Positions 36,115 through 52,278 of a stretch of 64,000 bases of DNA are shown here, one piece after another; position 1 is the first letter of the stretch, and each line of letters begins with the position of its first letter. The DNA comes from an uncultured Gammaproteobacteria bacterium (GTDB taxonomy: Bacteria > Pseudomonadota > Gammaproteobacteria > Ga0077536). The translations under genes and the position numbers were made by a program. Below the pieces are notes generated by a model. That model made no database searches. It saw nothing but the letters and a program-made list of their open reading frames with translations, and was not told the origin of the DNA. The DNA is taken from NCBI GenBank assembly GCA_938082545.1, contig CALKCL010000019.1, forward strand, positions 3,914-67,913, given 5' to 3'.

Positions 36115-37095
36115 TTACCTAATAACGTTGTCTCCAATGACGCCTATTGAGGTTGGAATACCGTTTTCCAGCCTCAAAGCCTTTTGGACAGCAAGATACC
36201 TCAGCTTGAACTTGTCACTGCCGAACTGCAGATCAAGTAAGCGCATGGTCTCTGCATATCTAGAAGCTAGATCACCAGGATTCTCTTTCAGGGAAGGATG
36301 AGCCTCTAGGTAAATGATCCCAGCATCTACGCCTACTTTTATAGGTTGATTAACTATTAAAACTTTCGTCCCGCTTTTTGTATTGGCAAATAGCTTTTTT
36401 ATGTGCTTTGGATACATTCGTATGCATCCATGAGTCACTCTCATTCCGATTCCATAGGGCTTATTAGTTCCGTGGATCAAATAGCCTTTTTCACTAAGAA
36501 GCATTGCGAATTTCCCTAAAGGATTTTTAGGTCCAGCCACAACGACTTTAGGTAAAGGGTCGCCGTTCGCCGCGTGTTCAGCTAATATCGAATCTGGCGG
36601 GTACCAAGCTGGATCTTCTAACTTCATAGTGACGGTCATAGCCCCATGAGGCGTGCCCCATTTTTGCCGCCCCACACTTACCGGATACGTGGACATCTCA
36701 AAAGAGTTCTCTCGTGTCGAAGTTCCAAACACGTACATACGCATCTCCGGAATATTTATGACTATTCCATCCGTCTTTACGCTCGGTAGAATATAAAGGC
36801 TAGGGATTATCACGTCGGTTCCTGCTTGAGGCAGCCACGGATCGATTGCTGGATTAGCAAGACGCATTTCTGTATACCCTTGATTATAAGAGCGAGCTAT
36901 ATCAGATAGCGTGTCGCCTTGTTCCACAAAAGCAAGCATCAGTTCGCCCACCAAATCACTTTTCGTATTAGCAGCTACATTGCTATGAAAAACTATTATG
37001 AGTAAAAGCAAAAAGGCAAAAAAGCTGCGGGCAAAGGATCTCAACAACGAAACTAGCGCTCTAGTAGTCGGGGCATAAGTTCCACAAGATTGCAT
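36115..37095 (-). CDS. LysM-containing L,D-transpeptidase (ErfK/YbiS family)
   Basis: GDTLSDIAR...ANPAIDPWLP (LysM), INIPEMRMY, YLIHGT, THGCIRM; real start probably about 48 nt downstream of 37095. Confidence 0.92.
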   Translation of the reverse strand: MQSCGTYAPTTRALVSLLRSFARSFFAFLLLLIIVFHSNVAANTKSDLVGELMLAFVEQGDTLSDIARSYNQGYTEMRLANPAIDPWLPQAGTDVIIPSLYILPSVKTDGIVINIPEMRMYVFGTSTRENSFEMSTYPVSVGRQKWGTPHGAMTVTMKLEDPAWYPPDSILAEHAANGDPLPKVVVAGPKNPLGKFAMLLSEKGYLIHGTNKPYGIGMRVTHGCIRMYPKHIKKLFANTKSGTKVLIVNQPIKVGVDAGIIYLEAHPSLKENPGDLASRYAETMRLLDLQFGSDKFKLRYLAVQKALRLENGIPTSIGVIGDNVIR

Positions 37096-37571
37096 GGTTT
37101 TGTTCGACTATCCAGCTGAAAGGATATTAAAGACTCCCATGCAAGTTTGCATGCGCCGGTTGACCCAGGCAAAGAAAAAACATAGGTCCTATTAGCAACG
37201 CCAGCCACTGCTCTAGACTGCATTGTCGAAGTTTTGATGTCCGCATATGAGAGAGCGCGAAAAGTCTCCCCGAAACCTTCTAAAGTTTTATCAAAAAGTA
37301 CTGAAACAGCCTCTGGTGTTCCATCTCTGCCAGTTACCCCAGTGCCTCCTGATATAAGAACAACATCTAACTTCGCAGTGTCTATCCATCCCGACACAAT
37401 AGCGCGAATAGAATATATGCTGTCTTTGCACATCGCTCTTTCAGCTAAATTGTGTCCTGCCTCAGCAATTTTTCTTACTAATAAGTCTCCAGACCTATCA
37501 TTTTTTAACGTACGTGTATCCGATACAGTCAGAACAGCTATCGACAAAGGAATAAATTCAGAATTCGGCAT
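37053..37571 (-). CDS. moaB: Molybdenum cofactor biosynthesis protein B
   Basis: IAVLTVSDTR, GGTGVTGRDGTPEA, QSRAVAG, LPGSTGAC, KPCN. Confidence 0.95.
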   Translation of the reverse strand: MPNSEFIPLSIAVLTVSDTRTLKNDRSGDLLVRKIAEAGHNLAERAMCKDSIYSIRAIVSGWIDTAKLDVVLISGGTGVTGRDGTPEAVSVLFDKTLEGFGETFRALSYADIKTSTMQSRAVAGVANRTYVFSLPGSTGACKLAWESLISFQLDSRTKPCNLVELMPRLLER

Positions 37572-38188: not shown

Positions 38189-39067
38189 ATGTACCCAGCA
38201 CCTATAGAACAATATTCTAGACCCTCAACGCTAGAAGAGCTGTACAGCCTTCTAGACTCTAATGAAGAAGATATTTTAGTCCTTGCAGGAGGGCAAAGCG
38301 CGATGCAAGCAGTAAAATCTCGCATGCTTAGACCTGCTCATATCATCGATTTACAAGCACTCTCTGAATTAAAATTCGTTACGTCCGAAAAAGATCTTCT
38401 TACAGTTGGGGCGATGACCAGGTACGCTGATATTGTATCTTCCGATTCAATTCCACTAGAACTCATGGCATTGAAGGATGCGGCGAGTCGCGTTGGTGAC
38501 AGACAAGTTCGTAACAGAGGTACTATCGGGGGAAGCCTGTGCTGGAACTATAGCGCCGCTTGTACCCCAGCTACTGTCTTAGCTTTAGATGGGGCTATGA
38601 ACCTCATATCCCCAGATGGCTCGACTAGACAAGTCGCTGCAGATGATTTCTTTCTAGGGCCATTGGAGACCGCTCGAAACGAATTTGAGATATTACTGTC
38701 TGTTGATTTCAAGTTGAGAGGCTCTAAGTCTGGAAGTGCATATAAAAAATGGGGGTTAGTAACCGATGCGCTGCCAGTCATAGGGATAGCGGCATGCTTG
38801 CACTTCGATAATGCGGACTGTTGCGACTACGCACGAATAACTTTAACGGGTCTATCCGGCGCTCAACGTTGCCTGGAAGCAGAAGCGTCGCTCCTAAGCA
38901 CCAGCGCGAATGCAGAAGAAATTGCAGAGGCCATGATGATTGTGTGTAGTAAAGTATCGACGTATACAGACTCCATGGCGACTGCAGATTATCGCTATCA
39001 GCTTATAAAAACAATCGGCTTAGAAGTGATAGAAATAGCAAAAAAAAGAGCTTTCAGCTTAGGATAA
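38189..39067 (+). CDS. Xanthine-oxidase-family hydroxylase, FAD (medium) subunit
   Basis: LAGGQS, GDRQVRNRGTIGGSL, AYKK. Confidence 0.93.
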   Translation: MYPAPIEQYSRPSTLEELYSLLDSNEEDILVLAGGQSAMQAVKSRMLRPAHIIDLQALSELKFVTSEKDLLTVGAMTRYADIVSSDSIPLELMALKDAASRVGDRQVRNRGTIGGSLCWNYSAACTPATVLALDGAMNLISPDGSTRQVAADDFFLGPLETARNEFEILLSVDFKLRGSKSGSAYKKWGLVTDALPVIGIAACLHFDNADCCDYARITLTGLSGAQRCLEAEASLLSTSANAEEIAEAMMIVCSKVSTYTDSMATADYRYQLIKTIGLEVIEIAKKRAFSLG

Positions 39068-39083
39068 ATGGAGGACTGGCATA

Positions 39084-39563
39084 TTGGCTAAAGTTGCAAT
39101 TGATATCAACGGAAGACTGTTTCAAGAAGAAGTACCAGAAAGAATGCTATTAGTAGATTTCATTAGAGAACGTGCTCATCTCACAGGCACCCATATTGGA
39201 TGCACCTACGAAGGAGTATGTGGCGCATGTACAGTACATTTAGATGGAGAGGCTGTTAAAAGCTGTATGCTACTCGCCGCACAAGCAGATGAACACAAGA
39301 TTACAACAGTGGAAGGCTTGGCACCGGATGGAGAACTCACGCCATTGCAAGAAGCCTTCAAATCTGAACATGGTTTGCAATGTGGATTTTGCACAGCGGG
39401 TATCTTGATGAACATGACTGATTTCTTGAAAAGATATCCCAACCCAAGTGAGCAAGAAATCAGGGAAGGTCTGATTGGCAATTTATGCCGATGCACTGGC
39501 TATGTGCATATCATCAATGCTGTCCGCAAAGTTGTGCAAGAAAACCAATCAAGAAAAACCTAG
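39084..39563 (+). CDS. Xanthine-oxidase-family hydroxylase, 2x[2Fe-2S] (small) subunit
   Basis: GCTYEGVCGACTV, KSC, QCGFCT, NLCRCTGY. Confidence 0.95.
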   Translation: MAKVAIDINGRLFQEEVPERMLLVDFIRERAHLTGTHIGCTYEGVCGACTVHLDGEAVKSCMLLAAQADEHKITTVEGLAPDGELTPLQEAFKSEHGLQCGFCTAGILMNMTDFLKRYPNPSEQEIREGLIGNLCRCTGYVHIINAVRKVVQENQSRKT

Positions 39564-39575
39564 GAGACATAAGAC

Positions 39576-41969
39576 ATGTCCCAGAGAAAAAATGACGACT
39601 GGATGGGAACCCCGCTGCCCCGAAAAGAAGATCGCAGGTTGCTCACCGGGAAAGGAAAATATGTCAGCGACATCGTCATTCCCGGCGCACTTCATGCCGT
39701 TTTTGTCCGTAGCGAATATGCACATGCAAAAATATTATCTATCGATACATCTGAAGCCGAAGAATTGGCAGGTATTGAACGGATATATACAGGGGACCAG
39801 ATCAAACACCTAATAAAATCTATGCCACAACCGATTGTTCAACCCGCTCTTCCTGCTCACTACCCCACTTTTTGGCCATTAGCTGTTGATAAAGTCACAT
39901 TCCACGGAGAGCCAGTAGCACTTGTTGTAGCACGTGATAAATATGTTGCAGAAGATGCTGCTGAATTAGTGTTCGTTGATTACGAAGAACTAAAGCCGGT
40001 TTTAGACCCGGAAGAAGCCCTCAAACCTGAATCGGCGATTATCCATGAAAAAGATGGCACGAATGAAATATTTTCGATGACCTTCACCGGTGGAGATACA
40101 GAAGCAAGTCAAGCCGAAAATGCTGCTGAAGTAGAAAAAATATTCCAAAACGCACCTATCGTGGTCAAAGACAGATTTAAAACCCATCGCACTGGAGTCA
40201 CGCCAATGGAGCCCAGGGCGATCTTGTGTGATTGGGATGATTCCGATGGCTTACTCGCATACATTACGACACAACGGCCCCATATCGATAGATTAGCATT
40301 ATCCGACATACTCGATATCTCTGCAGAAAAAGTCCAAGTCATCGCGCCTCGTGATCAAGGAGGTGGCTTCGGAGTCAAGGCACCCTTCTACAGAGAAAAT
40401 ATAATTATTGCTCACGCGGCACGCGACTTAAAACAGCCAGTGAGATGGGTTGAATCTCGATATGAAAGCTTGATGAATGTAGGGCAAGAAAGAGATCAAA
40501 TTAACGACATGGAAATTGCTGCGGATCTAGAAGGCAATATGCTGGCACTGCGTAATTTTGGTCTCGCAGATAATGGCGTTGGAACGACAGGTGTATACTG
40601 GGGATTCGTCATGCCTTTCTTAGGCGCCATAGAGTTACCAAACGGATACAAATGGCCAAAGGCTGATATCCGTCTCAAAGTCGCAACTACCAATAAGGCT
40701 TGTTTAACACCCTCAAGAGCCTTTGGGCATTTCCCGACCCGTTTCGCAATTGAACGTTGTATCGATATGGTCGCCCACAAGATTGGGATGGAGCCCAGCA
40801 CGTTTCGCAGAAAGAATTTAGTAGCTGACCTACCTTACACCAGCATAACAAATGAATACTTTGACAGTGGCGATTTCCTAAAAGTCTGGGATACACTAAT
40901 GGAAAAAGCCAATCTTCCTGACTTCAGAGTCCAACAGAAAAATGCATTATCAGAAAAAAAATACATTGGAATAGGATTCGGGTGTGGAGTGGAACTGTCA
41001 GGGGTCGCTTCAGAACTATTTGTCCCAATGGAAAATCAACCCGGATACGGGGCTGCGACTGTGCGGCTCGATCCCAGAGGAAAAGTCCAAGTCTTTGGTG
41101 GCGATGCGCCTGGAGGGCAAGGTCATGAAACAACGACCGCACAAGTGGTCGCTTCCGAATTCGGTATTTCTCCCGAAGATGTCATCATAACAACGGGGAA
41201 TACAGGTAGTACTCCTTTTGGCTCTGGTTCGGTTGGAGCCCGCATGGGGTCCTATTTCATCAGCGCGGTGGCTGAGGCCTGTAGAGAATTAAAAACCAAA
41301 ATTGCTAAGTTCTTAGCACATGACTTACAACTAGAAGCATCAGTTGAACATTTTGAGTTCAAAAATGGAGAGGTTGTCTATTTAGGCGACGATTCCCAGC
41401 GTAGCTCTTTCATGTCTATTGTTGAACGTATCATCATGTTTCCGATCAACATGCCAGAGGGGGAAACCGGTGGATTGGACGCAACGACTTTTTTCGAGGC
41501 CGCCAAGCCTATGATTTGCTTTAACGCTGATTGTTGCGTGGTTGAAGTGTCGTTGGAAACCGGTGACTTCAAAATATTAAAGTGGATAACAGCCGAAGAT
41601 GTAGGAAACGTAATAAATCCATTAATTGTTAACGGACAAATGCACGGAGCTATTGTTCAGGGCATATCTAACACTGTGTTCGAAGAATTTGTTTACGACG
41701 AACAAGGCCAACAATTGACTGCTGATTTTGAACATTACAAAATGGCTAATGCCGCAGATGTCCCCAACATTGATCTCAACTATGCCACCACGCCTTGTCC
41801 TCATACGCCTTTAGGGACTAGAGGTATTGGGGAAGGAAGACCTAGCTCTGTGCCAGGCGCGCTTACAAATGCGGTTTGTGATGCTCTAAAACCCTTTGGA
41901 ATAGAGATCACCACTTTGCCACTTAGGCCAGATGCTATCTGGCAAAAAATACAAGATGCTACTCAGTAA
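39576..41969 (+). CDS. Xanthine-oxidase-family hydroxylase, molybdopterin (large) subunit; substrate unknown
   Basis: RKEDRRLLTGKG, TQRPH, GGGFGVK, GQGHETT, GSGSVGAR, RGIGEG (catalytic Glu); active-site loop reads PSRAFGH. Confidence 0.92.
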   Translation: MSQRKNDDWMGTPLPRKEDRRLLTGKGKYVSDIVIPGALHAVFVRSEYAHAKILSIDTSEAEELAGIERIYTGDQIKHLIKSMPQPIVQPALPAHYPTFWPLAVDKVTFHGEPVALVVARDKYVAEDAAELVFVDYEELKPVLDPEEALKPESAIIHEKDGTNEIFSMTFTGGDTEASQAENAAEVEKIFQNAPIVVKDRFKTHRTGVTPMEPRAILCDWDDSDGLLAYITTQRPHIDRLALSDILDISAEKVQVIAPRDQGGGFGVKAPFYRENIIIAHAARDLKQPVRWVESRYESLMNVGQERDQINDMEIAADLEGNMLALRNFGLADNGVGTTGVYWGFVMPFLGAIELPNGYKWPKADIRLKVATTNKACLTPSRAFGHFPTRFAIERCIDMVAHKIGMEPSTFRRKNLVADLPYTSITNEYFDSGDFLKVWDTLMEKANLPDFRVQQKNALSEKKYIGIGFGCGVELSGVASELFVPMENQPGYGAATVRLDPRGKVQVFGGDAPGGQGHETTTAQVVASEFGISPEDVIITTGNTGSTPFGSGSVGARMGSYFISAVAEACRELKTKIAKFLAHDLQLEASVEHFEFKNGEVVYLGDDSQRSSFMSIVERIIMFPINMPEGETGGLDATTFFEAAKPMICFNADCCVVEVSLETGDFKILKWITAEDVGNVINPLIVNGQMHGAIVQGISNTVFEEFVYDEQGQQLTADFEHYKMANAADVPNIDLNYATTPCPHTPLGTRGIGEGRPSSVPGALTNAVCDALKPFGIEITTLPLRPDAIWQKIQDATQ

Positions 41970-41989
41970 TTGGGTGTTAGGAGTAACCG

Positions 41990-42556
41990 TTGGAATTAAA
42001 TGATGAAGTGCTTATTAAAGCTGAAAGAGAAAAGGTTTTCCTAGCGTTAAATGATCCAGATATTTTACAAAAAGCGATACCTGGATGCGAGCTGATTGAA
42101 AAGCTATCTGCGGATAAGTACAAGGCTATTATTGTATCAAAAATCGGTCCCTTGAAAATTCGTTTCAAAGGAGAAGCGACGATCTCAGAATCAAAGTTCC
42201 CTTCAAACTATAAAATTACTGGAGAAGGAAGAGGTGGTCCGGCCGGACACGCTAAAGTGGTCGCAAATGTAGTGCTGCGTGAAGAAGAGTCATCCACTCG
42301 CCTAGCATACACTGTGCACGCCGACATTGGTGGGAAGCTTGCTCAACTGGGAGGCCCTTTGGTGGAAAAGACAGCGCAAAAGCTATCGGCTAATTTTTTT
42401 GAGCATTTAAATAAGCTTTTGTCAGCAAACACCTCAATAAAAACAGAGGATGAAACTATCTCTTCGCCGGATAAAGCCCCGTCATACTGGGCCAAAGCTG
42501 CCGCCATTTCAGCTATTGTGGCAATAGGTATTCTGGCCTGGGCAATGCTTAAATAA
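41990..42556 (+). CDS. coxG: CoxG/SRPBCC family protein with C-terminal membrane anchor
   Basis: LNDPDILQKAIPGCE, IGPLK, IGGKLAQLG, hydrophobic C-tail. Confidence 0.88.
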   Translation: MELNDEVLIKAEREKVFLALNDPDILQKAIPGCELIEKLSADKYKAIIVSKIGPLKIRFKGEATISESKFPSNYKITGEGRGGPAGHAKVVANVVLREEESSTRLAYTVHADIGGKLAQLGGPLVEKTAQKLSANFFEHLNKLLSANTSIKTEDETISSPDKAPSYWAKAAAISAIVAIGILAWAMLK

Positions 42557-42626: not shown

Positions 42627-43640
42627 ATGAGTAGAGCGGCAGAAAGATACCCTGAGAAACTCGTCGACAAGTTCGGGCGAACAGTAGATTACGTGCGGAT
42701 ATCTGTGACTGACAGATGTGACTTCCGTTGCGTTTATTGTATGGATGAGGAGATGGAGTTTCTCCCTCGAGACCGCATCCTGACTCTAGAGGAACTAGAG
42801 TTAGTCGGGAAAGCATTTGCAGAGTTGGGAGTAACAAAAATTCGGCTTACTGGTGGGGAACCATTAGTACGAAAAGACGTCATCACGCTAATCGAAAATT
42901 TAGGAACAATACAAAGTCTAAAAGAGTTAGTAATAACCACAAACGGTTCACAATTAGTCAAATTAGCGTTGCCTTTAAAAAATGCTGGCGTGAAAAGAAT
43001 CAATATCAGTTTAGATTCCCTAAATCCAAAAAAATTCAAAGAACTCACAAGAACCGGTGAACTCCAGCAAGTCCTTGATGGAATCAAAGCCGCTAAAGCA
43101 GCTAATTTCGAAAAAATAAAAATCAATGCTGTTATTTTAAAAAATAGAAACGATGATGAAGTTAAAGCATTAGTTGATTTCTCCGCAGACAATGACCTTG
43201 ATATATCCTTCATTGAAGAAATGCCTTTGGGTGTTATAGGAGAACATGATAGGGCCGAGGCATATTACTCTAGCGATAATATTAAAGCGGATTTGGAAAA
43301 GCATTACACATTGATCCCCACCCCAGAAACTACTGCGGGTCCGTCCAAGTATTTCCGCGTCGCAGAAACTGGCGCTCGTGTTGGTTTTATTTCTCCCCAC
43401 AGCCATAACTTCTGTGACGACTGTAATAGAGTCCGTCTAACGGCAGAAGGAAGATTGCTCTTATGTCTGGGGCAGGAACATTCGGTTGACCTCAGGGCTG
43501 TACTGAGAACCTACCCTGGCGATATCAATAAGCTGAAATCCGCAATCGTTGACTCTATGGATATAAAACCCAAAGGACATGACTTCGACCTAAGTGTGCA
43601 ACCATTAATATTCCGTCATATGAGTCACACTGGCGGCTAA
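42627..43640 (+). CDS. moaA: GTP 3',8-cyclase
   Basis: RISVTDRCDFRCVYC, LTGGEP, FCDDCNRVRLT...LC, C-terminal GG. Confidence 0.97.
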   Translation: MSRAAERYPEKLVDKFGRTVDYVRISVTDRCDFRCVYCMDEEMEFLPRDRILTLEELELVGKAFAELGVTKIRLTGGEPLVRKDVITLIENLGTIQSLKELVITTNGSQLVKLALPLKNAGVKRINISLDSLNPKKFKELTRTGELQQVLDGIKAAKAANFEKIKINAVILKNRNDDEVKALVDFSADNDLDISFIEEMPLGVIGEHDRAEAYYSSDNIKADLEKHYTLIPTPETTAGPSKYFRVAETGARVGFISPHSHNFCDDCNRVRLTAEGRLLLCLGQEHSVDLRAVLRTYPGDINKLKSAIVDSMDIKPKGHDFDLSVQPLIFRHMSHTGG

Positions 43641-43716: not shown

Positions 43717-44409
43717 TTGTTCGACTCTAACTCAGCTCTAATCTCTGCTTTTTCGATGCTCCTAACAGGAGATAGAGAAGTTTGGTCAGCTATCGGTGTT
43801 TCATTTTCGGTTTCTCTACGTGCAATTCTCATTGCGTCACCTCCTGCTATTGCAATGGCTTTTCTTCTCGCATATAAAACTTTTCCTGGCAGAAGATTAG
43901 TTCTAACTATAACCAACACTTTAATGTCAGTTCCTGCAGTCGTTGTTGGCCTCACTGTTTATCTTGCTTTGTCTAAAAATGGCATAGCAGCCGACCTCAG
44001 ATTACTCTATACCCAGCCAGCTATGATTATCGGCCAAGTTATTATTTGTTTCCCGCTGCTAGTTGCTATGGCTCACGCCACTTTTGTGGCAGGAGACAAA
44101 CTTGCGTATGAAACTGCTCGTACCCTAGGTGCTAAACGCATCCCAGCGATGCTCACCGTCTTTCTCGAGTTGCGCTTTGGTTTGCTGGCCGCAGTAATTG
44201 CCGGATTCAGCCGGATAATCGCAGAAATTGGCTGCTCTATGATGGTCGGTGGCAATATTTTAGATCACACAAGAAATATCCCGACAGCAATAGCCTTAGA
44301 AACCAGCAAAGGAGAGTTTGCTATGGGAGTGGCATTGGGGATCGTTTTGCTGTCACTCACTATGCTACTGAACGTACTGCTAGCGATGTTTCAAGGTGAT
44401 GGGCAATGA
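43717..44409 (+). CDS. tupB: Tungstate-type ABC transporter permease
   Basis: NTLMSVPAVVVGLTVY, LLYTQPAMIIGQ, AEIGCSMMVGGNI...TRNIPTAIALETSKG. Confidence 0.85.
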   Translation: MFDSNSALISAFSMLLTGDREVWSAIGVSFSVSLRAILIASPPAIAMAFLLAYKTFPGRRLVLTITNTLMSVPAVVVGLTVYLALSKNGIAADLRLLYTQPAMIIGQVIICFPLLVAMAHATFVAGDKLAYETARTLGAKRIPAMLTVFLELRFGLLAAVIAGFSRIIAEIGCSMMVGGNILDHTRNIPTAIALETSKGEFAMGVALGIVLLSLTMLLNVLLAMFQGDGQ

Positions 44410-45071
44410 GCTTAGCTAATACGGCACAGTCCCTCACAGCGAATAAGTTAACCTTTATACGTGATACTAGATTAATACTTGATTGCAAGAGTTTGACGGT
44501 ACAGAAAGGCGAACTTGTTCTCCTAACCGGGCCAAACGGTTCTGGTAAAACGACCCTACTGAAAATATTGGCCGGACTGATAACAGCGGATACCGGTGAG
44601 TTCATACTAGGAGAGAAAAGCTTTACTAGCTTTGAAGCACCTAAGTACTTAATTGGGACATGTATTTATTTACACCAAACTCCCTATATGTTTTGCGGGA
44701 CAGTCCTCCAGAATCTAAGTTATGGCTTGAGAAGAAAAGGATTGAGAAACAATGATATAAGATCTTTGGTGGACCAAGCCATCAGAAAAAATAAGCTGAC
44801 TCATTTGACTGAAAGAATGGCCTCTACGCTCTCGGCTGGAGAGCAACATCAGGTAGCTTTAGTTAGAGCACAAATATTGAAACCTCCTGTTTTGCTCTTA
44901 GATGAAATCACTGCGCACATGGACCAGAAAGCGCGCGGTAGGACATTCGAAATAATAAAAGCGCTACAGGAAGAAGAAATTTCTATTGTTTTTGCAACCC
45001 ATGACGATGAAACCATTAAAACATTACCCGGCACATTCCTTCATATGGACAGCGGTTGTTTGGCTTTATGA
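44406..45071 (+). CDS. tupC: ABC transporter ATP-binding subunit (TupC-like)
   Basis: GPNGSGKTT, LSAGEQ, LLLDE, ATHD; 4-nt overlap with tupB. Confidence 0.75.
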   Translation: MSLANTAQSLTANKLTFIRDTRLILDCKSLTVQKGELVLLTGPNGSGKTTLLKILAGLITADTGEFILGEKSFTSFEAPKYLIGTCIYLHQTPYMFCGTVLQNLSYGLRRKGLRNNDIRSLVDQAIRKNKLTHLTERMASTLSAGEQHQVALVRAQILKPPVLLLDEITAHMDQKARGRTFEIIKALQEEEISIVFATHDDETIKTLPGTFLHMDSGCLAL

Positions 45072-45682
45072 GCCCGGAACTGAAAAGTGACATTACTGGT
45101 TGTATTTTGGCTGGAGGACAGGGGATCCGTGTAGGGGGAAAAGACAAAGGATTGATAACTCTAAATGGAAGATATTTATCTCAACACTGTATAGAACGTC
45201 TCTCTCCGCAGGTAGGTTCTATCATCATAAGCGCCAACAGGAACATACCTGTTTACGAAAGCTTTGGATGCATTGTGGTACAAGATAAAACAGATAACAG
45301 CAATGGACCCCTAAGCGGCTTTCATGGTGCTTTAGAAGTAGCTACAACGACTTTTGTGGCTTTCACTCCATGCGATGCACCATTTTTCCCGCAAAATCTT
45401 GTTGAGAAACTGATGGAGCCTTTTTCTGATGAAAAAACTGAAATCACAATGGCAATTGTTCGAACCAAACACCAGCCGGTGTTCGCAATGGTTAAAAGCA
45501 GTTTAGAGAATTCATTAGCTTTATTCTTAGAAAACGGTGGGAGAAAAATCCGCTCTTGGTTCGACACCAGAACGTGCGTAACCGTCGAGTTCGATGATAA
45601 GGGCGAGTTCATGAACATCAATAGCCCATCAGACCTTGAAAAAGCTGAACTATGGTCTAAGAAAAATCAAATTACTGCCTAG
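45068..45682 (+). CDS. mobA: Molybdenum cofactor guanylyltransferase
   Basis: ILAGGQG...GKDKGL, SANRN, GPLSG, PCDAPF, QPVF, FMNINSP; ATG 45068 overlaps the tupC stop. Confidence 0.92.
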   Translation: MSPELKSDITGCILAGGQGIRVGGKDKGLITLNGRYLSQHCIERLSPQVGSIIISANRNIPVYESFGCIVVQDKTDNSNGPLSGFHGALEVATTTFVAFTPCDAPFFPQNLVEKLMEPFSDEKTEITMAIVRTKHQPVFAMVKSSLENSLALFLENGGRKIRSWFDTRTCVTVEFDDKGEFMNINSPSDLEKAELWSKKNQITA

Positions 45683-48789: not shown

Positions 48790-50052
48790 TTGAACTTCAT
48801 GACTATCCAACAAAGCTGCAAAGACGATTCTGACCCCACTTCTCTGTCTTGCGAGGAAGCTATAGTTCGTATTCTCGATAGCATGAGTTCCTTGACACAG
48901 ACAGAAATGGTGCCCATCAGGCACAGCCTAGGTCGCGTAATCTCCTTTGATATTATAGCCGCTGCCAACGTGCCACCTCACAAAAACTCTGCTATGGATG
49001 GGTATGCTTTTCGTCAGGAAGAGCTGCAAGGTCTCAATAATCCCGTAATAAAAATAATTGGCACCGCTTTTGCTGGTAAAGCGTTCACTCGCCCCATAGA
49101 AAAAAACGAAGCAGTCCGGATCATGACGGGAGCTTTAGTCCCTGAAAATGCTGACACAATCGTCATCCAAGAGCACGTTAAAGCTAGTGGAAATGATCTC
49201 CAGATCCTAGAAATGCCTAACTTTGGAGAAAACATTCGTGCTGCTGGAGAGGATATTCGCGTAGGCGAAACTATTTTGAAATCCGGTCACACGGTTACGC
49301 CCGCTGATTTAGGGTTGATTGCATCTCTAGGAATAGCCGAGGTGCAAGTATTTCAAAAACCCAGAGTAGCTTATTTTTCTACAGGTGATGAACTGAAGTC
49401 GCTAGGAACCACTTTGGAACCTGGGGAAATTTACGACAGTAACCGATACACGCTGTATGGGATGCTCCAATACTTAGGAGTCGAAATCATAGATATGGGT
49501 GTGGTGAAAGACACTTATGATGCCATAGAGGCTGCGTTACTTGATGCTAGCAAATCTGCCGATATGGTAATAACCTCTGGAGGCGTCTCAGTTGGAGACG
49601 CGGACTTTATCAAAGAAGCTTTGGGCAACGTGGGCCAAGTTAAATTTTGGAAAATCGCTATGAAGCCGGGGCGACCGCTTGCCTTTGGGAAAATAGGAAA
49701 GGCTCACTTTTTCGGCCTACCTGGCAATCCCGTATCTGTCATGGTCGGTTTCCATCAATTTGTTACCCCGGCATTAGAAAAGATTTCAGGCGCTAAAACC
49801 AACAGGAACATAATTCTAGAAGCCGCAGTCACAAAAGCACTGAGGAAGAGGCCAGGAAGAGCTGAATATCAGAGAGGTATTTTAGCTCAAGAAGATGATG
49901 GCTCTTTAACGGTTCAACCAACGGGGGATCAAGGATCAGGGATATTAAAATCTATGTCACAGGCCAACTGCTTTATTTATCTGCCTATTGATGCGTCAGA
50001 TATTCACATAAATGAAGCAGTGAGAGTCATTCCTTTTAACAGTGCTATTTAG
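48790..50052 (+). CDS. moeA: Molybdopterin molybdotransferase
   Basis: NSAMDGYA, IMTGA, STGDEL, TSGGVSVGDAD, KPGRP, GLPGNP, GDQGSG. Confidence 0.96.
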   Translation: MNFMTIQQSCKDDSDPTSLSCEEAIVRILDSMSSLTQTEMVPIRHSLGRVISFDIIAAANVPPHKNSAMDGYAFRQEELQGLNNPVIKIIGTAFAGKAFTRPIEKNEAVRIMTGALVPENADTIVIQEHVKASGNDLQILEMPNFGENIRAAGEDIRVGETILKSGHTVTPADLGLIASLGIAEVQVFQKPRVAYFSTGDELKSLGTTLEPGEIYDSNRYTLYGMLQYLGVEIIDMGVVKDTYDAIEAALLDASKSADMVITSGGVSVGDADFIKEALGNVGQVKFWKIAMKPGRPLAFGKIGKAHFFGLPGNPVSVMVGFHQFVTPALEKISGAKTNRNIILEAAVTKALRKRPGRAEYQRGILAQEDDGSLTVQPTGDQGSGILKSMSQANCFIYLPIDASDIHINEAVRVIPFNSAI

Positions 50053-51016: not shown

Positions 51017-51475
51017 TTAAAAATCAGCACTACTGCCGGATGTATTTTTCGTAACCCAACGTTCCCCATCTTCACGTTTCTCTCTCTTCCAAAAAGGAAC
51101 GTTGGATTTCAAAGATTCCATAATGTCCCTACAGGCATCAAAAGAATGAGCTCGATGAGCTGACCATACTGCCACCAACACAATAGGGTCACCCGGATAA
51201 ACCTCACCTATACGATGTATAACTAAAACGTGATCGAGAGACCATCGTTTCTCCGCTCGGTCAGCAATTTTCTCTAGTTCCTTAACAGTCATCTCGGGGT
51301 GATGTTCTAGGTACATTGACTCGACAGAGACACCATCATTAAAATCTCTCATATTTCCAATAAAAATCGAGGATGCACCGATTTTTTTTCTTCTGCCATC
51401 CAACTCTTTTTCGGTTTGCAACAATAGGTCGTATGGCGAAAATGGCTCTTTAGACAACCTAACCGTCATGCTCAA
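51017..51475 (-). CDS. moaE: Molybdopterin synthase catalytic subunit
   Basis: FIGNMR, LEHHPEMT, HRIG, SAHR, LKSNVPFWKRE. Confidence 0.95.
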   Translation of the reverse strand: MSMTVRLSKEPFSPYDLLLQTEKELDGRRKKIGASSIFIGNMRDFNDGVSVESMYLEHHPEMTVKELEKIADRAEKRWSLDHVLVIHRIGEVYPGDPIVLVAVWSAHRAHSFDACRDIMESLKSNVPFWKREKREDGERWVTKNTSGSSADF

Positions 51476-51786: not shown

Positions 51787-52278
51787 ATGTCAAAGCTAAC
51801 CCACTTAGATGAAGATGGTAAAGCAAAAATGGTTGATGTGGGGGGTAAAACTCCGACCAAGAGGACCGCAATTGCTACAGGAAGAATTTCCATGCGGCCA
51901 GAAACACTTAATTTAGTCATATCTGGGACAAACAAAAAAGGAGATGTCTTAGCTGTCGCTCGAATCGCCGGAATCATGGCGGCTAAGAGAACAGCTGACT
52001 TGATTCCGTTGTGCCATCCATTAAGTATAACTAGGATTGACATTGATCTGGAACTAGACCTAGAAAAATCCACCATAAATTGCACCGCTTTAGTTGAAAC
52101 AATCGGACAAACTGGTGTTGAAATAGAAGCGCTAAATGCGACGCAAGTTGCTTTGTTGACTGTTTATGACATGTGTAAAGCTGCGGACAAGGGAATGGTT
52201 ATTAGTCACGTGATGCTCAAAGAAAAACGTGGTGGGAGATCAGGCCATTGGTCTCGAGACGAAATCCAGGGGATTTAA
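51787..52278 (+). CDS. moaC: Cyclic pyranopterin monophosphate synthase
   Basis: LTHLD...[33 protein letters not shown]. Confidence 0.97.

What the first reader, a model, noticed from the sequence alone, without database searches (positions are those of the whole stretch)
38189..42556. coxMSL-G-like Mo-hydroxylase with a novel active-site loop (PSRAFGH)
Seen: the order M-S-L-G mimics CO dehydrogenase loci, but the loop at 40710-40730 reads PSRAFGH-FPTRF where form I CODH has AYxCSFR and form II has AYRGAGR; the catalytic Glu (RGIGEG) is retained and coxDEF are absent. Inference: an uncharacterised membrane-anchored hydroxylase (N-heterocycle, aldehyde or CoA-ester substrate) that automated pipelines would likely mislabel as coxL.
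Basis: partly seen in the sequence, partly recalled or inferred. Interest (0 to 1): 0.65.

Follow-up and report, generated by a model that had tools for sequence, protein, structure and literature searches.

The report
Uncharacterised CoxMSLG-like molybdenum hydroxylase, not CODH
This is an intact four-gene molybdenum hydroxylase that resembles aerobic CO dehydrogenase in gene order but belongs to a conserved, uncharacterised branch of the xanthine-oxidase family, whose substrate is unknown and is probably a small aldehyde or an oxygen-ring compound, not CO.

Summary
Four tightly spaced genes, M-S-L-G, lie at 38189-42556. PSRAFGH is exactly at 40710-40730 and RGIGEG at 41820-41837.

The loop aligns without gaps to the AYRGxG loop of quinoline oxidoreductase. 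It keeps the Arg and Gly but has no Cys. No curated CODH, xanthine dehydrogenase or glyceraldehyde dehydrogenase model reaches its cut-off. It is therefore not a form I or form II CoxL.

The large subunit belongs to a tight clade in which LTPSRAFGHFPTRFA is nearly invariant. An ortholog is present in 69 of 81 genomes of one uncultured gammaproteobacterial order and was not found in about 398 genomes of other families. Looser PxRxFG..PxRFA relatives occur in Bacillota, Alphaproteobacteria and Nitrososphaerales. None of the solved enzymes tested falls inside the clade.

Loop diversity in this radiation is large, so a new loop alone is unremarkable.

The best-conserved partner is a divergent SMP-30-type lactonase gene. 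A link to pyridine degradation is not general: the NicX ring-cleavage gene is in only 17 of 81 genomes. CoxG carries a conserved C-terminal membrane tail. xdhC and a mocA-like gene lie 28 kb upstream.

The substrate remains unknown, with an aldehyde or lactone-forming substrate favoured. Interest is moderate to low.

The parts
38189..39067 (+). M: FAD-binding medium subunit (292 aa)
   Evidence: Pfam FAD_binding_5 at 1e-37 and CO_deh_flav_C. The AGGQS and TIGGS motifs are visible. Its best NCBIfam hit, glyceraldDH_beta, scores 188 against a cut-off of 350.
39084..39563 (+). S: small subunit with two [2Fe-2S] clusters (159 aa, TTG start)
   Evidence: Pfam Fer2_2 at 3e-29 and Fer2. Both four-cysteine motifs are present. 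A GGAGGA site lies 7 nt before the TTG start.
39576..41969 (+). L: molybdopterin-binding large subunit (797 aa)
   Evidence: Pfam Ald_Xan_dh_C, MoCoBD_1 and MoCoBD_2. No NCBIfam equivalog cut-off is met. Best PDB matches are 8uem CoxL at 425 bits, 1t3q Qor at 408 and 7dqx Kdh at 377.
40272..40274 (+). Gln233 (TTQRPH), equivalent to the Mo-oxo-contacting Gln of CODH and Qor. It is followed by a clade-specific Arg.
   Evidence: Alignment. The role of the Gln rests on established knowledge of XO-family structures.
40710..40730 (+). Active-site loop PSRAFGH (residues 379-385)
   Evidence: Coordinates. It aligns without gaps to Qor GAYRGVG, with R381 and G384 conserved. It is nearly invariant across 119 relatives.
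41820..41837 (+). RGIGEG motif carrying the catalytic Glu753 (41832-41834)
   Evidence: It aligns to the G(E) of Qor, CoxL, Kdh and HcrA.
41990..42556 (+). G: CoxG/SRPBCC protein (188 aa, TTG start)
   Evidence: Pfam COXG at 4e-29.
42485..42553 (+). C-terminal hydrophobic tail of G (YWAKAAAISAIVAIGILAWAMLK), a predicted tail anchor
   Evidence: Sequence. A comparable tail, with 19-residue Kyte-Doolittle hydropathy of about 1.3-2.5, is present in 19 of 20 family CoxG proteins.
9854..10861 (-). XdhC/CoxI-family maturation chaperone, the only one in the genome. Its link to MSLG is inferred.
   Evidence: XdhC_CoxI plus XdhC_C. NCBIfam XdhC_rel_AOR scores 133, below its cut-off.
9265..9882 (-). MocA-like nucleotidyltransferase, the candidate MCD synthase. 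The link is inferred.
   Evidence: It is the best TIGR03310 hit in the genome at 114 bits, against a cut-off of 186. Pfam NTP_transf_3.
42627..43640 (+). moaA, 70 nt downstream of G. It is part of the surrounding Moco biosynthesis cluster: mog 37053-37571(-), mobA 45056-45682, moeA 48790-50052, moaE 51017-51475(-) and moaC 51787-52278.
   Evidence: TIGR02666 at 366 bits, above the cut-off of 284.

Best explanation
Shown or strongly supported: M, S, L and G encode an intact xanthine-oxidase-family molybdenum hydroxylase of the CoxL/Qor type. Its predicted cofactors are FAD, two [2Fe-2S] clusters and a molybdopterin, probably the cytosine dinucleotide form. It is not a CO dehydrogenase. It belongs to a conserved, uncharacterised clade that is near-core in one uncultured gammaproteobacterial order.

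Inferred mechanism: Glu753 acts as the base and the Mo-OH attacks an sp2 C-H carbon of an organic substrate. Two electrons then pass from Mo through the two [2Fe-2S] clusters to FAD. From there they go to a membrane acceptor, probably quinone, with the complex held at the membrane by tail-anchored CoxG.

Clade-specific pocket changes probably set the specificity. Relative to the AYRG motif, Tyr is replaced by Ser and Gly by Ala. Phe383 sits at the position of the substrate-stacking Phe of xanthine dehydrogenase. Val replaces the Tyr or Trp that precedes the GxR motif. An Arg follows the Mo-contacting Gln.

Most likely substrate class (inferred, about 35-40%): a small aldehyde such as glycolaldehyde, glyceraldehyde or lactaldehyde, or a related carbon whose oxidation belongs to a pathway that also uses an SMP-30-type lactonase. 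That lactonase gene is the enzyme's best-conserved neighbour.
For: - Domains and motifs are intact, and L and S are under strong purifying selection.
- There is no Cys in the loop. TIGR02416 scores 457 against a cut-off of 991, and NF040766 scores 472 against 950. The genome holds no form I loop.
- The clade is well supported in both trees. The family has support of 100, joins P0126 at 100, joins P0127 and P0130 at 97-98, and has an NRPxG sister group at 99-100. No solved enzyme lies inside it (FastTree; IQ-TREE LG+C20).
- A match at E<=1e-100 occurs in 72 of 81 genomes of the order. 69 of these are orthologs at 64% identity or more, and 16 of 18 genera have a match. None of about 398 genomes from other families of the class has one at E<=1e-180.
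- The SMP-30/regucalcin-like gene is divergent and directly upstream of M in 17 of 26 loci, including loci with no Moco genes nearby. Its best PDB matches are regucalcin and the entry 7plb (SMP-30/Cgr1 family), which I recall as the xylonolactonase XylC.
- The lactonase and L co-occur: 59 genomes have both, 10 have L only, 1 has the lactonase only and 11 have neither (Fisher p=3e-7, not corrected for phylogeny).
- Other recurrent neighbours fit aldehyde or sugar-acid chemistry. These are a threonine-aldolase-type lyase, a GFA-family protein, and a hydrolase like 2,4-didehydro-3-deoxy-L-rhamnonate hydrolase.
- An archaeal loop-sharing relative sits among GFO/IDH/MocA sugar dehydrogenases and a sugar ABC transporter.
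- All three subunits have glyceraldehyde dehydrogenase subunits as their top NCBIfam hit, though below cut-off.
- The CoxG tail is conserved. A separate SRPBCC subunit with a transmembrane segment is essential in 3-hydroxypyridine dehydrogenase HpdA (10.1101/2020.01.08.898148).
Against: - No biochemical datum exists for any clade member.
- In the window's own genus the lactonase gene is not adjacent. It sits on contig C2.
- Co-loss of adjacent genes may reflect physical linkage or assembly gaps rather than shared function.
- The glyceraldehyde dehydrogenase hits are non-specific. The CODH models score almost as high. PGAP applies that name to an AYRGAGR form-II-type protein.
- Other contexts point elsewhere. 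An isochorismatase-family gene replaces CoxG beside Rieske, NicX or Amidohydro_2 genes in one genus. A BKACE gene lies between L and G in five loci. Paralogs sit beside enoyl-CoA hydratases.
- The deep branching order of the tree is unresolved.
- The type of pterin cofactor and the electron acceptor are inferred only.
Confidence: 0.55

Rival explanations
1. It is an N-heterocycle hydroxylase, such as a nicotinate, picolinate or hydroxypyridine dehydrogenase. It would feed the 2,5-dihydroxypyridine (maleamate) pathway or another ring-amide pathway.
For: In one genus (g17) the operon reads FAA-hydrolase<- M S L isochorismatase-family hydrolase. Rieske oxygenase, NicX, alpha/beta hydrolase or Amidohydro_2 genes lie within a few kb, which resembles the pic/nic clusters (pic pathway in 10.1101/530550). 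The window's own genome has a Rieske-NicX-hydrolase-amidase-racemase-like module on C21. The active-site segments are almost identical between the g17 variant and the query. HpdA offers a four-component precedent.
Against: NicX orthologs occur in only 17 of 81 genomes (4 of 18 genera), while the L ortholog occurs in 69. The two show no association: 15, 54, 2 and 10 genomes in the four classes, p=1.0. In the own genome the NicX module is on another contig and lies nearer to a different XO-family enzyme, on C21. No isochorismatase or PicC-like homolog was found in the own genome.
Confidence: 0.2
2. It is a hydroxylase of an O-heterocyclic or unsaturated acyl-CoA, or of a pyrone, in the manner of furoyl-CoA dehydrogenase. 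Its product would tautomerise to a lactone. The SMP-30 lactonase would open that lactone, and in some genera the BKACE enzyme would cleave the resulting beta-keto acid.
For: The lactonase is a conserved neighbour. A BKACE gene lies between L and G in five loci. It passes the equivalog cut-off for 3,5-dioxohexanoate:acetyl-CoA acetone transferase at 534 bits against 430. Loop-sharing relatives and paralogs sit with CoA ligases, CoA transferase, thiolase and enoyl-CoA hydratases. The Trudgill pathway has exactly such a lactone step after Mo-dependent hydroxylation (PMC3223595). An Arg at the PxRFA position is shared only with 4-hydroxybenzoyl-CoA reductase among the solved enzymes.
Against: No CoA ligase or CoA transferase lies next to the near-core operon in any of the 26 loci. 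BKACE is absent from the window's genome and from most loci. These genomes are very rich in enoyl-CoA hydratase genes, so adjacency is weak evidence. JGI names for clade members never mention furoyl-CoA dehydrogenase. HmfA itself could not be compared.
Confidence: 0.2
3. It is an aerobic CO dehydrogenase, a divergent form of CoxMSL.
For: The gene order M-S-L-G matches, and JGI names its relatives as CODH large subunit. The best PDB hit by score is Mycobacterium CoxL.
Against: The loop has no Cys, so no Cu ligand. The two-residue CS insertion of form I is missing. The scores of 457 and 472 bits fall far below the cut-offs of 991 and 950. There is no coxD or coxE at the locus. The clade is separate from the branch holding form I and AYRGAGR sequences. 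The literature defines true Mo-CODH by (A/S)YRCS(F/L)R (PMC13240472).
Confidence: 0.03
4. It is the lineage's xanthine or purine dehydrogenase.
For: It is a near-core gene. The genome has no canonical XdhAB. Phe383 aligns with the substrate-stacking Phe of xanthine dehydrogenase; that residue's role is recalled from memory.
Against: The position after GGGFGxK is Ala rather than the substrate-binding Glu (role recalled from memory). All xanthine dehydrogenase models score far below cut-off. The genome has no OHCU decarboxylase and no HIU hydrolase.
Confidence: 0.03

Closest known systems
Aerobic CO dehydrogenase CoxMSL, form I (Oligotropha carboxidovorans 1n5w; Mycobacterium smegmatis 8uem)
   Same: Three-subunit architecture, M-S-L gene order and a CoxG accessory protein. 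The Mo-contacting Gln and the catalytic Glu are conserved. It is the highest pairwise score to a solved structure, at 425 bits and about 35% identity.
   Different: It lacks the AYxCSFR loop and so has no Cys for the Cu ligand. It also lacks the two-residue loop insertion and has no coxDE at the locus. It falls below all curated cut-offs.
Quinoline 2-oxidoreductase QorMSL (Pseudomonas putida 86, 1t3q) and ketone dehydrogenase KdhL (7dqx)
   Same: The same fold and subunits. The loop aligns without gaps, with its Arg and Gly conserved.
   Different: They are separate clades. The query has SRAFG in place of YRGVG or YRAPG. Val-Gly replaces Qor Tyr-Ala in the GxxxSR segment.
3-Hydroxypyridine dehydrogenase HpdA1-4 (Ensifer adhaerens HP1)
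   Same: A four-component enzyme with a separate SRPBCC/CoxG-like subunit. That subunit carries a predicted transmembrane segment and is essential for activity.
   Different: The gene order differs. No PEP-utilising partner genes were seen here. The maleamate pathway is absent from most genomes that carry the clade.
Furoyl-CoA dehydrogenase HmfABC (Cupriavidus basilensis HMF14)
   Same: A Mo hydroxylase whose product becomes a lactone that must be opened. Here a lactonase is the conserved neighbour.
   Different: No CoA ligase or thioesterase is adjacent to the operon. The sequence was not compared.
Archaeal glyceraldehyde dehydrogenase (NCBIfam NF041018-20; Sulfolobus tokodaii 4zoh)
   Same: It is the top NCBIfam hit for all three subunits. 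An aldehyde-oxidising role in a pathway that also has a lactonase would fit.
   Different: The scores of 495, 188 and 205 fall below the cut-offs of 790, 350 and 290. The entry 4zoh scores only 278 bits. A protein that PGAP names by this model carries AYRGAGR.

Membership tests
Xanthine oxidase / Mo hydroxylase family (three-subunit CoxL/Qor type) | Large subunit with Ald_Xan_dh_C plus MoCoBD_1 and MoCoBD_2 domains | tested here: met
   Pfam E-values of 2.5e-28, 1.7e-56 and 8.1e-67
Xanthine oxidase / Mo hydroxylase family (three-subunit CoxL/Qor type) | Conserved Mo-site Gln and catalytic Glu | tested here: met
   Q233 in TTQRPH and E753 in RGIGEG align with Qor, CoxL and HcrA
Xanthine oxidase / Mo hydroxylase family (three-subunit CoxL/Qor type) | Small subunit with two [2Fe-2S] clusters and a medium subunit that binds FAD | tested here: met
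   Fer2 plus Fer2_2 with eight Cys; FAD_binding_5 plus CO_deh_flav_C
Xanthine oxidase / Mo hydroxylase family (three-subunit CoxL/Qor type) | Bound Mo-molybdopterin (MCD) with a sulfido ligand | not testable with these tools
   Only the maturation genes were seen: XdhC at 9854-10861 and a MocA-like gene at 9265-9882
Form I aerobic CO dehydrogenase (CoxL) | Active-site loop (A/S)YRCS(F/L)R with the Cu-binding Cys | tested here: not met
   The loop is LTPSRAFGHF with no Cys. Motif definition from PMC13240472
Form I aerobic CO dehydrogenase (CoxL) | Curated model score (TIGR02416 / NF040766) | tested here: not met
   457 against 991 and 472 against 950 bits
Form I aerobic CO dehydrogenase (CoxL) | coxD/E/F maturation genes beside coxMSL | tested here: not met
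   G is followed by moaA. The VWA_CoxE hits are on other contigs. XdhC is 28 kb away
Form II CoxL-like | AYRGAGR loop | tested here: not met
   PSRAFGH occupies that position. The AYRGAGR sequences form other clades
Glyceraldehyde dehydrogenase (NF041018/19/20) | Curated equivalog cut-offs for the alpha, beta and gamma subunits | tested here: not met
   495 against 790, 188 against 350 and 205 against 290
Xanthine dehydrogenase (XdhA/PucD/XdhB models) | Curated cut-offs and presence of downstream urate catabolism | tested here: not met
   All models fall below cut-off. The genome has no OHCU decarboxylase or HIU hydrolase
Pyridine-ring hydroxylases feeding the maleamate pathway (PicA/NicAB/HpdA type) | Co-occurrence with 2,5-dihydroxypyridine dioxygenase (NicX/PicD) | tested here: not met
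   NicX is in 17 of 81 genomes and the L ortholog in 69, with no association
Pyridine-ring hydroxylases feeding the maleamate pathway (PicA/NicAB/HpdA type) | Sequence clustering with PicA1, HpdA1, NdhL or SpmA | not tested
   These sequences were not obtainable. The plasmid collection gave a maximum of 37% identity. I expect it to include pAO1 and pHCG3, but did not check
Furoyl-CoA dehydrogenase (HmfABC) | Adjacent furoyl-CoA synthetase (HmfD) and crotonase-type hydrolase (HmfE) | tested here: not met
   None is present in the window or in the 26 family loci. Such genes appear only beside distant relatives and paralogs

The most novel reading that the evidence does not exclude
The PSRAFG clade may be a new functional type of Mo hydroxylase that works with an SMP-30 lactonase. 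One possibility is a quinone-linked oxidase of sugar-derived aldehydes or lactols that is core to an uncultured gammaproteobacterial order. Another is the first step of an undescribed pathway in which an O-heterocycle such as a pyrone or furan is hydroxylated, the lactone is opened by the lactonase, and the beta-keto acid is cleaved by a BKACE enzyme to acetoacetate units.
Probability: 0.15. Interest if true: 0.6.

Novelty: new variant of a known kind. Interest (0 to 1): 0.3.

Why it matters
Genes of this clade are routinely counted as coxL (CO dehydrogenase) in KEGG- or JGI-style annotation. This inflates estimates of CO-oxidising potential in marine and soil metagenomes. Recognising the PxRxFG..PxRFA loop as a non-CODH signature corrects that.

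The clade is near-core in a whole uncultured order and is under strong purifying selection. It therefore marks a physiologically important molybdenum-dependent reaction that is still unknown. Its cultured distant relative in Alteribacillus offers an experimental entry point.

It is nevertheless one of many uncharacterised branches of a very diverse enzyme family, so the surprise for a specialist is modest.

Tried and rejected
- CO dehydrogenase was rejected on the loop, the model scores and the missing coxDE.
- Xanthine dehydrogenase was rejected on model scores and the absence of urate-catabolic genes.
- The picolinate/nicotinate dehydrogenase idea looked attractive from loci L028, L037 and L038. 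It lost support when NicX proved absent from 54 of the 69 genomes that carry the enzyme.
- Closeness to archaeal glyceraldehyde dehydrogenase, suggested by the top NCBIfam hits, turned out to be non-specific. The PGAP-named member P0392 carries AYRGAGR.
- A search of the plasmid collection for characterised relatives gave at most 37% identity. The inspected Phaeobacter hit lies in an unrelated PedF/PQQ context.
- Promoter and terminator scans gave no more hits than shuffled sequence.
- BKACE, isochorismatase and PicC-like partners are absent from the window's genome.
- Enoyl-CoA hydratase adjacency of the paralogs is weak evidence, because the 2-Mb genome has many such genes (at least 20 tblastn matches).
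- A structure prediction was not run. Model coordinates cannot be inspected here, and a fold search would only return the same CODH and Qor structures.

Full report
**1. Observation**

The interval 38189-42556 holds four co-directional ORFs:
- M: 292 aa.
- S: 159 aa, TTG start.
- L: 797 aa.
- G: 188 aa, TTG start.

They are separated by 16, 12 and 20 nt, each gap with a GGAG-type ribosome-binding site. Pfam assigns FAD_binding_5 plus CO_deh_flav_C to M, Fer2 plus Fer2_2 to S, Ald_Xan_dh_C plus MoCoBD_1 and MoCoBD_2 to L, and COXG to G.

PSRAFGH is residues 379-385 of L, exactly 40710-40730. RGIGEG is residues 749-754, at 41820-41837.

Against the same-genus locus L001, dN/dS is 0.027 for L, 0.033 for S, 0.11 for M and 0.46 for G. 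These are functional genes.

**2. What the loop is**

HMMER alignments to solved structures and MAFFT alignments place TPSRAFGHFPTRF without gaps on Qor GAYRGVGFTAGQI and Kdh GAYRAPGRYESTF. Arg381 and Gly384 are the family-invariant Arg and Gly.

The aromatic residue before the Arg is Ser here, and the Gly after it is Ala. Phe383 occupies the position of Qor Val and of the substrate-stacking Phe of xanthine dehydrogenase; that role is my recollection of the structures. Form I CoxL has a two-residue insertion (C-S) that is absent here.

The other cofactor motifs are retained:
- TTQ233RPH.
- GGGFGVK.
- GQGHETT.
- GxxGAR.
- GE753G.

Three clade-specific changes stand out:
- An Arg follows the Mo-site Gln.
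- A GVYWGFVMPFLGA segment is present.
- Val or Ile sits where CoxL, Qor and HcrA have Tyr and Kdh has Trp, before G/A-S-R.

**3. Not a member of any curated or solved family**

No NCBIfam equivalog cut-off is reached:

| Model | Score | Cut-off |
|---|---|---|
| glyceraldDH_alpha | 495 | 790 |
| CODH_aero_grp5 | 472 | 950 |
| TIGR02416 (CODH large subunit) | 457 | 991 |
| 4-hydroxybenzoyl-CoA reductase (HBCR) alpha | 322 | 995 |
| XdhA | 312 | 780 |

The best solved relatives are all around 35% identical: M. smegmatis CoxL at 425 bits, Qor at 408 and Kdh at 377. The plasmid collection gave at most 37% identity.

**4. The clade**

A word-indexed search found more than 100 clusters at 69-100% identity. 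Those with a source name come from Gammaproteobacteria or Proteobacteria MAGs. Those named by JGI are called '(aerobic) carbon-monoxide dehydrogenase large subunit', and those named by NCBI carry the generic family name. In these sequences LTPSRAFGHFPTRFA is almost invariant.

The exhaustive search of 50%-identity cluster representatives shows a sharp drop. Hits fall from 54% (P0126, PSRSFGT) through 43% (P0127, from a cultured Alteribacillus; PGRAFGE) and 39% (P0130, PSRAFGT) to a flat background of 33-37%.

That background displays more than 40 loop variants among the top 150 representatives. A new loop is therefore the rule in this radiation, not the exception.

FastTree on 161 sequences and IQ-TREE with LG+C20 on 52 sequences agree:
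- The family has support of 100.
- It joins P0126 at 100.
- It joins P0127 and P0130 at 97-98.
- An 'NRPxG' trio is sister at 99-100.
- Qor, Kdh, form I CoxL, the AYRGAGR sequences and 4-HBCR all lie elsewhere.

The deep backbone of the tree is unresolved.

A second search seeded with P0130 showed the looser PxRxFG..PxRFA signature in Nitrososphaerales, Alphaproteobacteria and Hyphomicrobiales as well. These also carry only generic or CODH names.

**5. Distribution**

In the window's own order (81 species genomes, one family, 18 genera), 72 genomes have a match at E<=1e-100. 69 of these are orthologs at 64% identity or more. 16 of 18 genera and 49 of 51 high-quality genomes have a match, usually as a single copy. 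About a dozen genomes also hold 43-46% paralogs.

In a sample of about 398 genomes from other families of the class there is no match at E<=1e-180. The gene is thus near-core and, within that sample, confined to this lineage.

**6. Context**

In the window the operon sits inside a molybdenum-cofactor cluster. The order is:
- mog (minus strand), hslR-like, M S L G, moaA.
- An unassigned 230-aa ORF and an ABC ATPase.
- MobA. This is a guanylyltransferase (TIGR02665 at 199 bits, cut-off 152), not MocA.
- DUF1302 and DUF1329, moeA, a metallo-beta-lactamase-fold gene, moaE and moaC.

The genome's only XdhC gene and its best MocA-like gene lie at 9265-10861 on the minus strand.

Mapping a protein panel on 26 family loci from many genera gave these counts:
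- An SMP-30/regucalcin-like gene is divergent and directly upstream of M in 17 loci, including loci without any Moco gene nearby.
- CoxG follows L in 20 loci.
- A threonine-aldolase-type lyase is present in 10 loci, often with a GFA-family gene.
- A BKACE gene lies between L and G in 5 loci. It passes the equivalog cut-off for 3,5-dioxohexanoate:acetyl-CoA acetone transferase at 534 bits against 430.
- In one genus the operon is FAA-hydrolase<- M S L followed by an isochorismatase-family gene, without CoxG. Rieske, NicX or Amidohydro_2 genes lie nearby.

The window's genus has lost the adjacency. Its SMP-30 ortholog, at 64% identity, is on C2 next to hydantoinase A/B genes. The genome has no BKACE.

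**7. Tests of functional links**

- NicX orthologs occur in 17 of 81 genomes, so most carriers of the enzyme lack the maleamate pathway. There is no association (p=1.0).
- SMP-30 orthologs occur in 60 of 81 genomes and track the enzyme: 59 have both, 10 have L only, 1 has SMP-30 only and 11 have neither (Fisher p=3e-7). This test is not corrected for phylogeny. Physical adjacency also makes joint loss, or joint absence from an assembly, likely in itself.
- The genome lacks OHCU decarboxylase and HIU hydrolase, which argues against a purine role.
- The two other XO-family enzymes of the genome are different kinds. One is 4-HBCR-like with an AYRAPGA loop, next to an acyl-CoA dehydrogenase fusion. 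The other is a fused S-L protein with an AYRGYGK loop.
- There is no form I CoxL in the genome.

**8. CoxG**

The 23 C-terminal residues of G are hydrophobic. Equivalent Trp-rich tails follow a low-complexity linker in 19 of 20 family CoxG proteins. This supports a tail-anchored protein.

The literature gives a precedent. In 3-hydroxypyridine dehydrogenase HpdA, a separate SRPBCC subunit with a predicted transmembrane segment is essential. In PicA the SRPBCC domain is fused to the Fe-S subunit.

**9. Interpretation**

Shown:
- This is an intact, selected XO-family hydroxylase of an uncharacterised clade.
- It is not form I or form II CODH.
- It is mislabelled by KO-style pipelines.

Inferred:
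- The usual hydroxylase mechanism applies, with Glu753 as base and electrons passing from Mo through the Fe-S clusters to FAD.
- The electrons are delivered at the membrane through CoxG.

The substrate is unresolved. I rank the options as follows:
- A small aldehyde or lactone-related substrate first. This rests on the lactonase partner, the aldolase and GFA neighbours, the rhamnonate-pathway-like hydrolase, and the sugar-dehydrogenase context of the archaeal relative.
- A furoyl-CoA-like O-heterocycle or acyl-CoA next. This rests on the BKACE gene, the CoA-enzyme contexts of relatives, and the lactone step of the Trudgill pathway.
- An N-heterocycle alongside it, given the same 0.2 confidence, although the phyletic test weakens it.
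- CO and xanthine are unlikely.

**10. Novelty and interest**

This is a new variant within a very well-known enzyme family. Its practical value lies in annotation, because it is not coxL, and in flagging a near-core unknown molybdenum reaction in an uncultured order. The conceptual surprise is modest because uncharacterised loop variants abound.

Noticed in passing
window 9265-10861 (-): An xdhC gene (335 aa, XdhC_CoxI plus XdhC_C) overlaps a MocA-like NTP_transf_3 gene (205 aa). They are the only XdhC and the best MocA candidate in the genome. They presumably mature all three XO-family enzymes.
   Followed up: partly
window 43717-45682 (+): Between moaA and MobA lie a 230-aa ORF with no Pfam hit and an ABC ATPase. 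This trio is conserved in relatives (moaA-u230-ABC). It may be an uncharacterised transporter for molybdate or tungstate. The gene at 45056-45682 is MobA (guanylyltransferase), not MocA.
   Followed up: partly
genome contig C21:58349-61987 (-) and C15:43021-46765 (-): The genome has two further XO-family hydroxylases. One is 4-hydroxybenzoyl-CoA-reductase-like (762 aa, loop AYRAPGA) and lies next to a 779-aa double acyl-CoA dehydrogenase. The other is a fused FeS-Mo subunit (967 aa, loop AYRGYGK) next to a cyclase, a TauD-like dioxygenase and an acyl-CoA dehydrogenase.
   Followed up: partly
genome contig C21:38708-45674 (+): A module like the maleamate pathway: Rieske oxygenase, NicX-like dioxygenase, MetX-like alpha/beta hydrolase, amidase, an Asp/Glu-racemase-family gene (maleate-isomerase-like) and an MFS transporter. 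It is present in only 4 of 18 genera of the order.
   Followed up: partly
L025:12398-13330, also L044, L045, L047, L050: A BKACE gene is inserted between coxL and coxG in several genera. It passes the NCBIfam equivalog cut-off for 3,5-dioxohexanoate:acetyl-CoA acetone transferase. Together with the SMP-30 lactonase it suggests a lactone to beta-keto acid to acetoacetate route.
   Followed up: partly
L028, L037, L038, L053, L056: In one genus an isochorismatase-family hydrolase takes the place of coxG directly after L, and an FAA-hydrolase-family gene is divergent upstream. The active-site segments of L are almost unchanged.
   Followed up: partly
protein P0392: NCBI PGAP names an alphaproteobacterial 780-aa protein 'glyceraldehyde dehydrogenase subunit alpha'. 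It carries the classic form II AYRGAGR loop. The NF041018 model therefore appears to capture form-II CoxL-like proteins.
   Followed up: no
whole genome (tblastn): A 2.0-Mb genome carries at least eight hydantoinase/oxoprolinase A-B paralog pairs and many enoyl-CoA hydratase genes (at least 20 tblastn matches). This is unusual enrichment for its size.
   Followed up: no
L036:13056-22400: Downstream of coxG in one relative lie an SDR, hydantoinase A/B, a glutamine-synthetase-like gene, an isochorismatase-family gene and a DAO-GCV_T (sarcosine/dimethylglycine dehydrogenase-like) gene. The set resembles the creatinine/N-methylhydantoin pathway.
   Followed up: no
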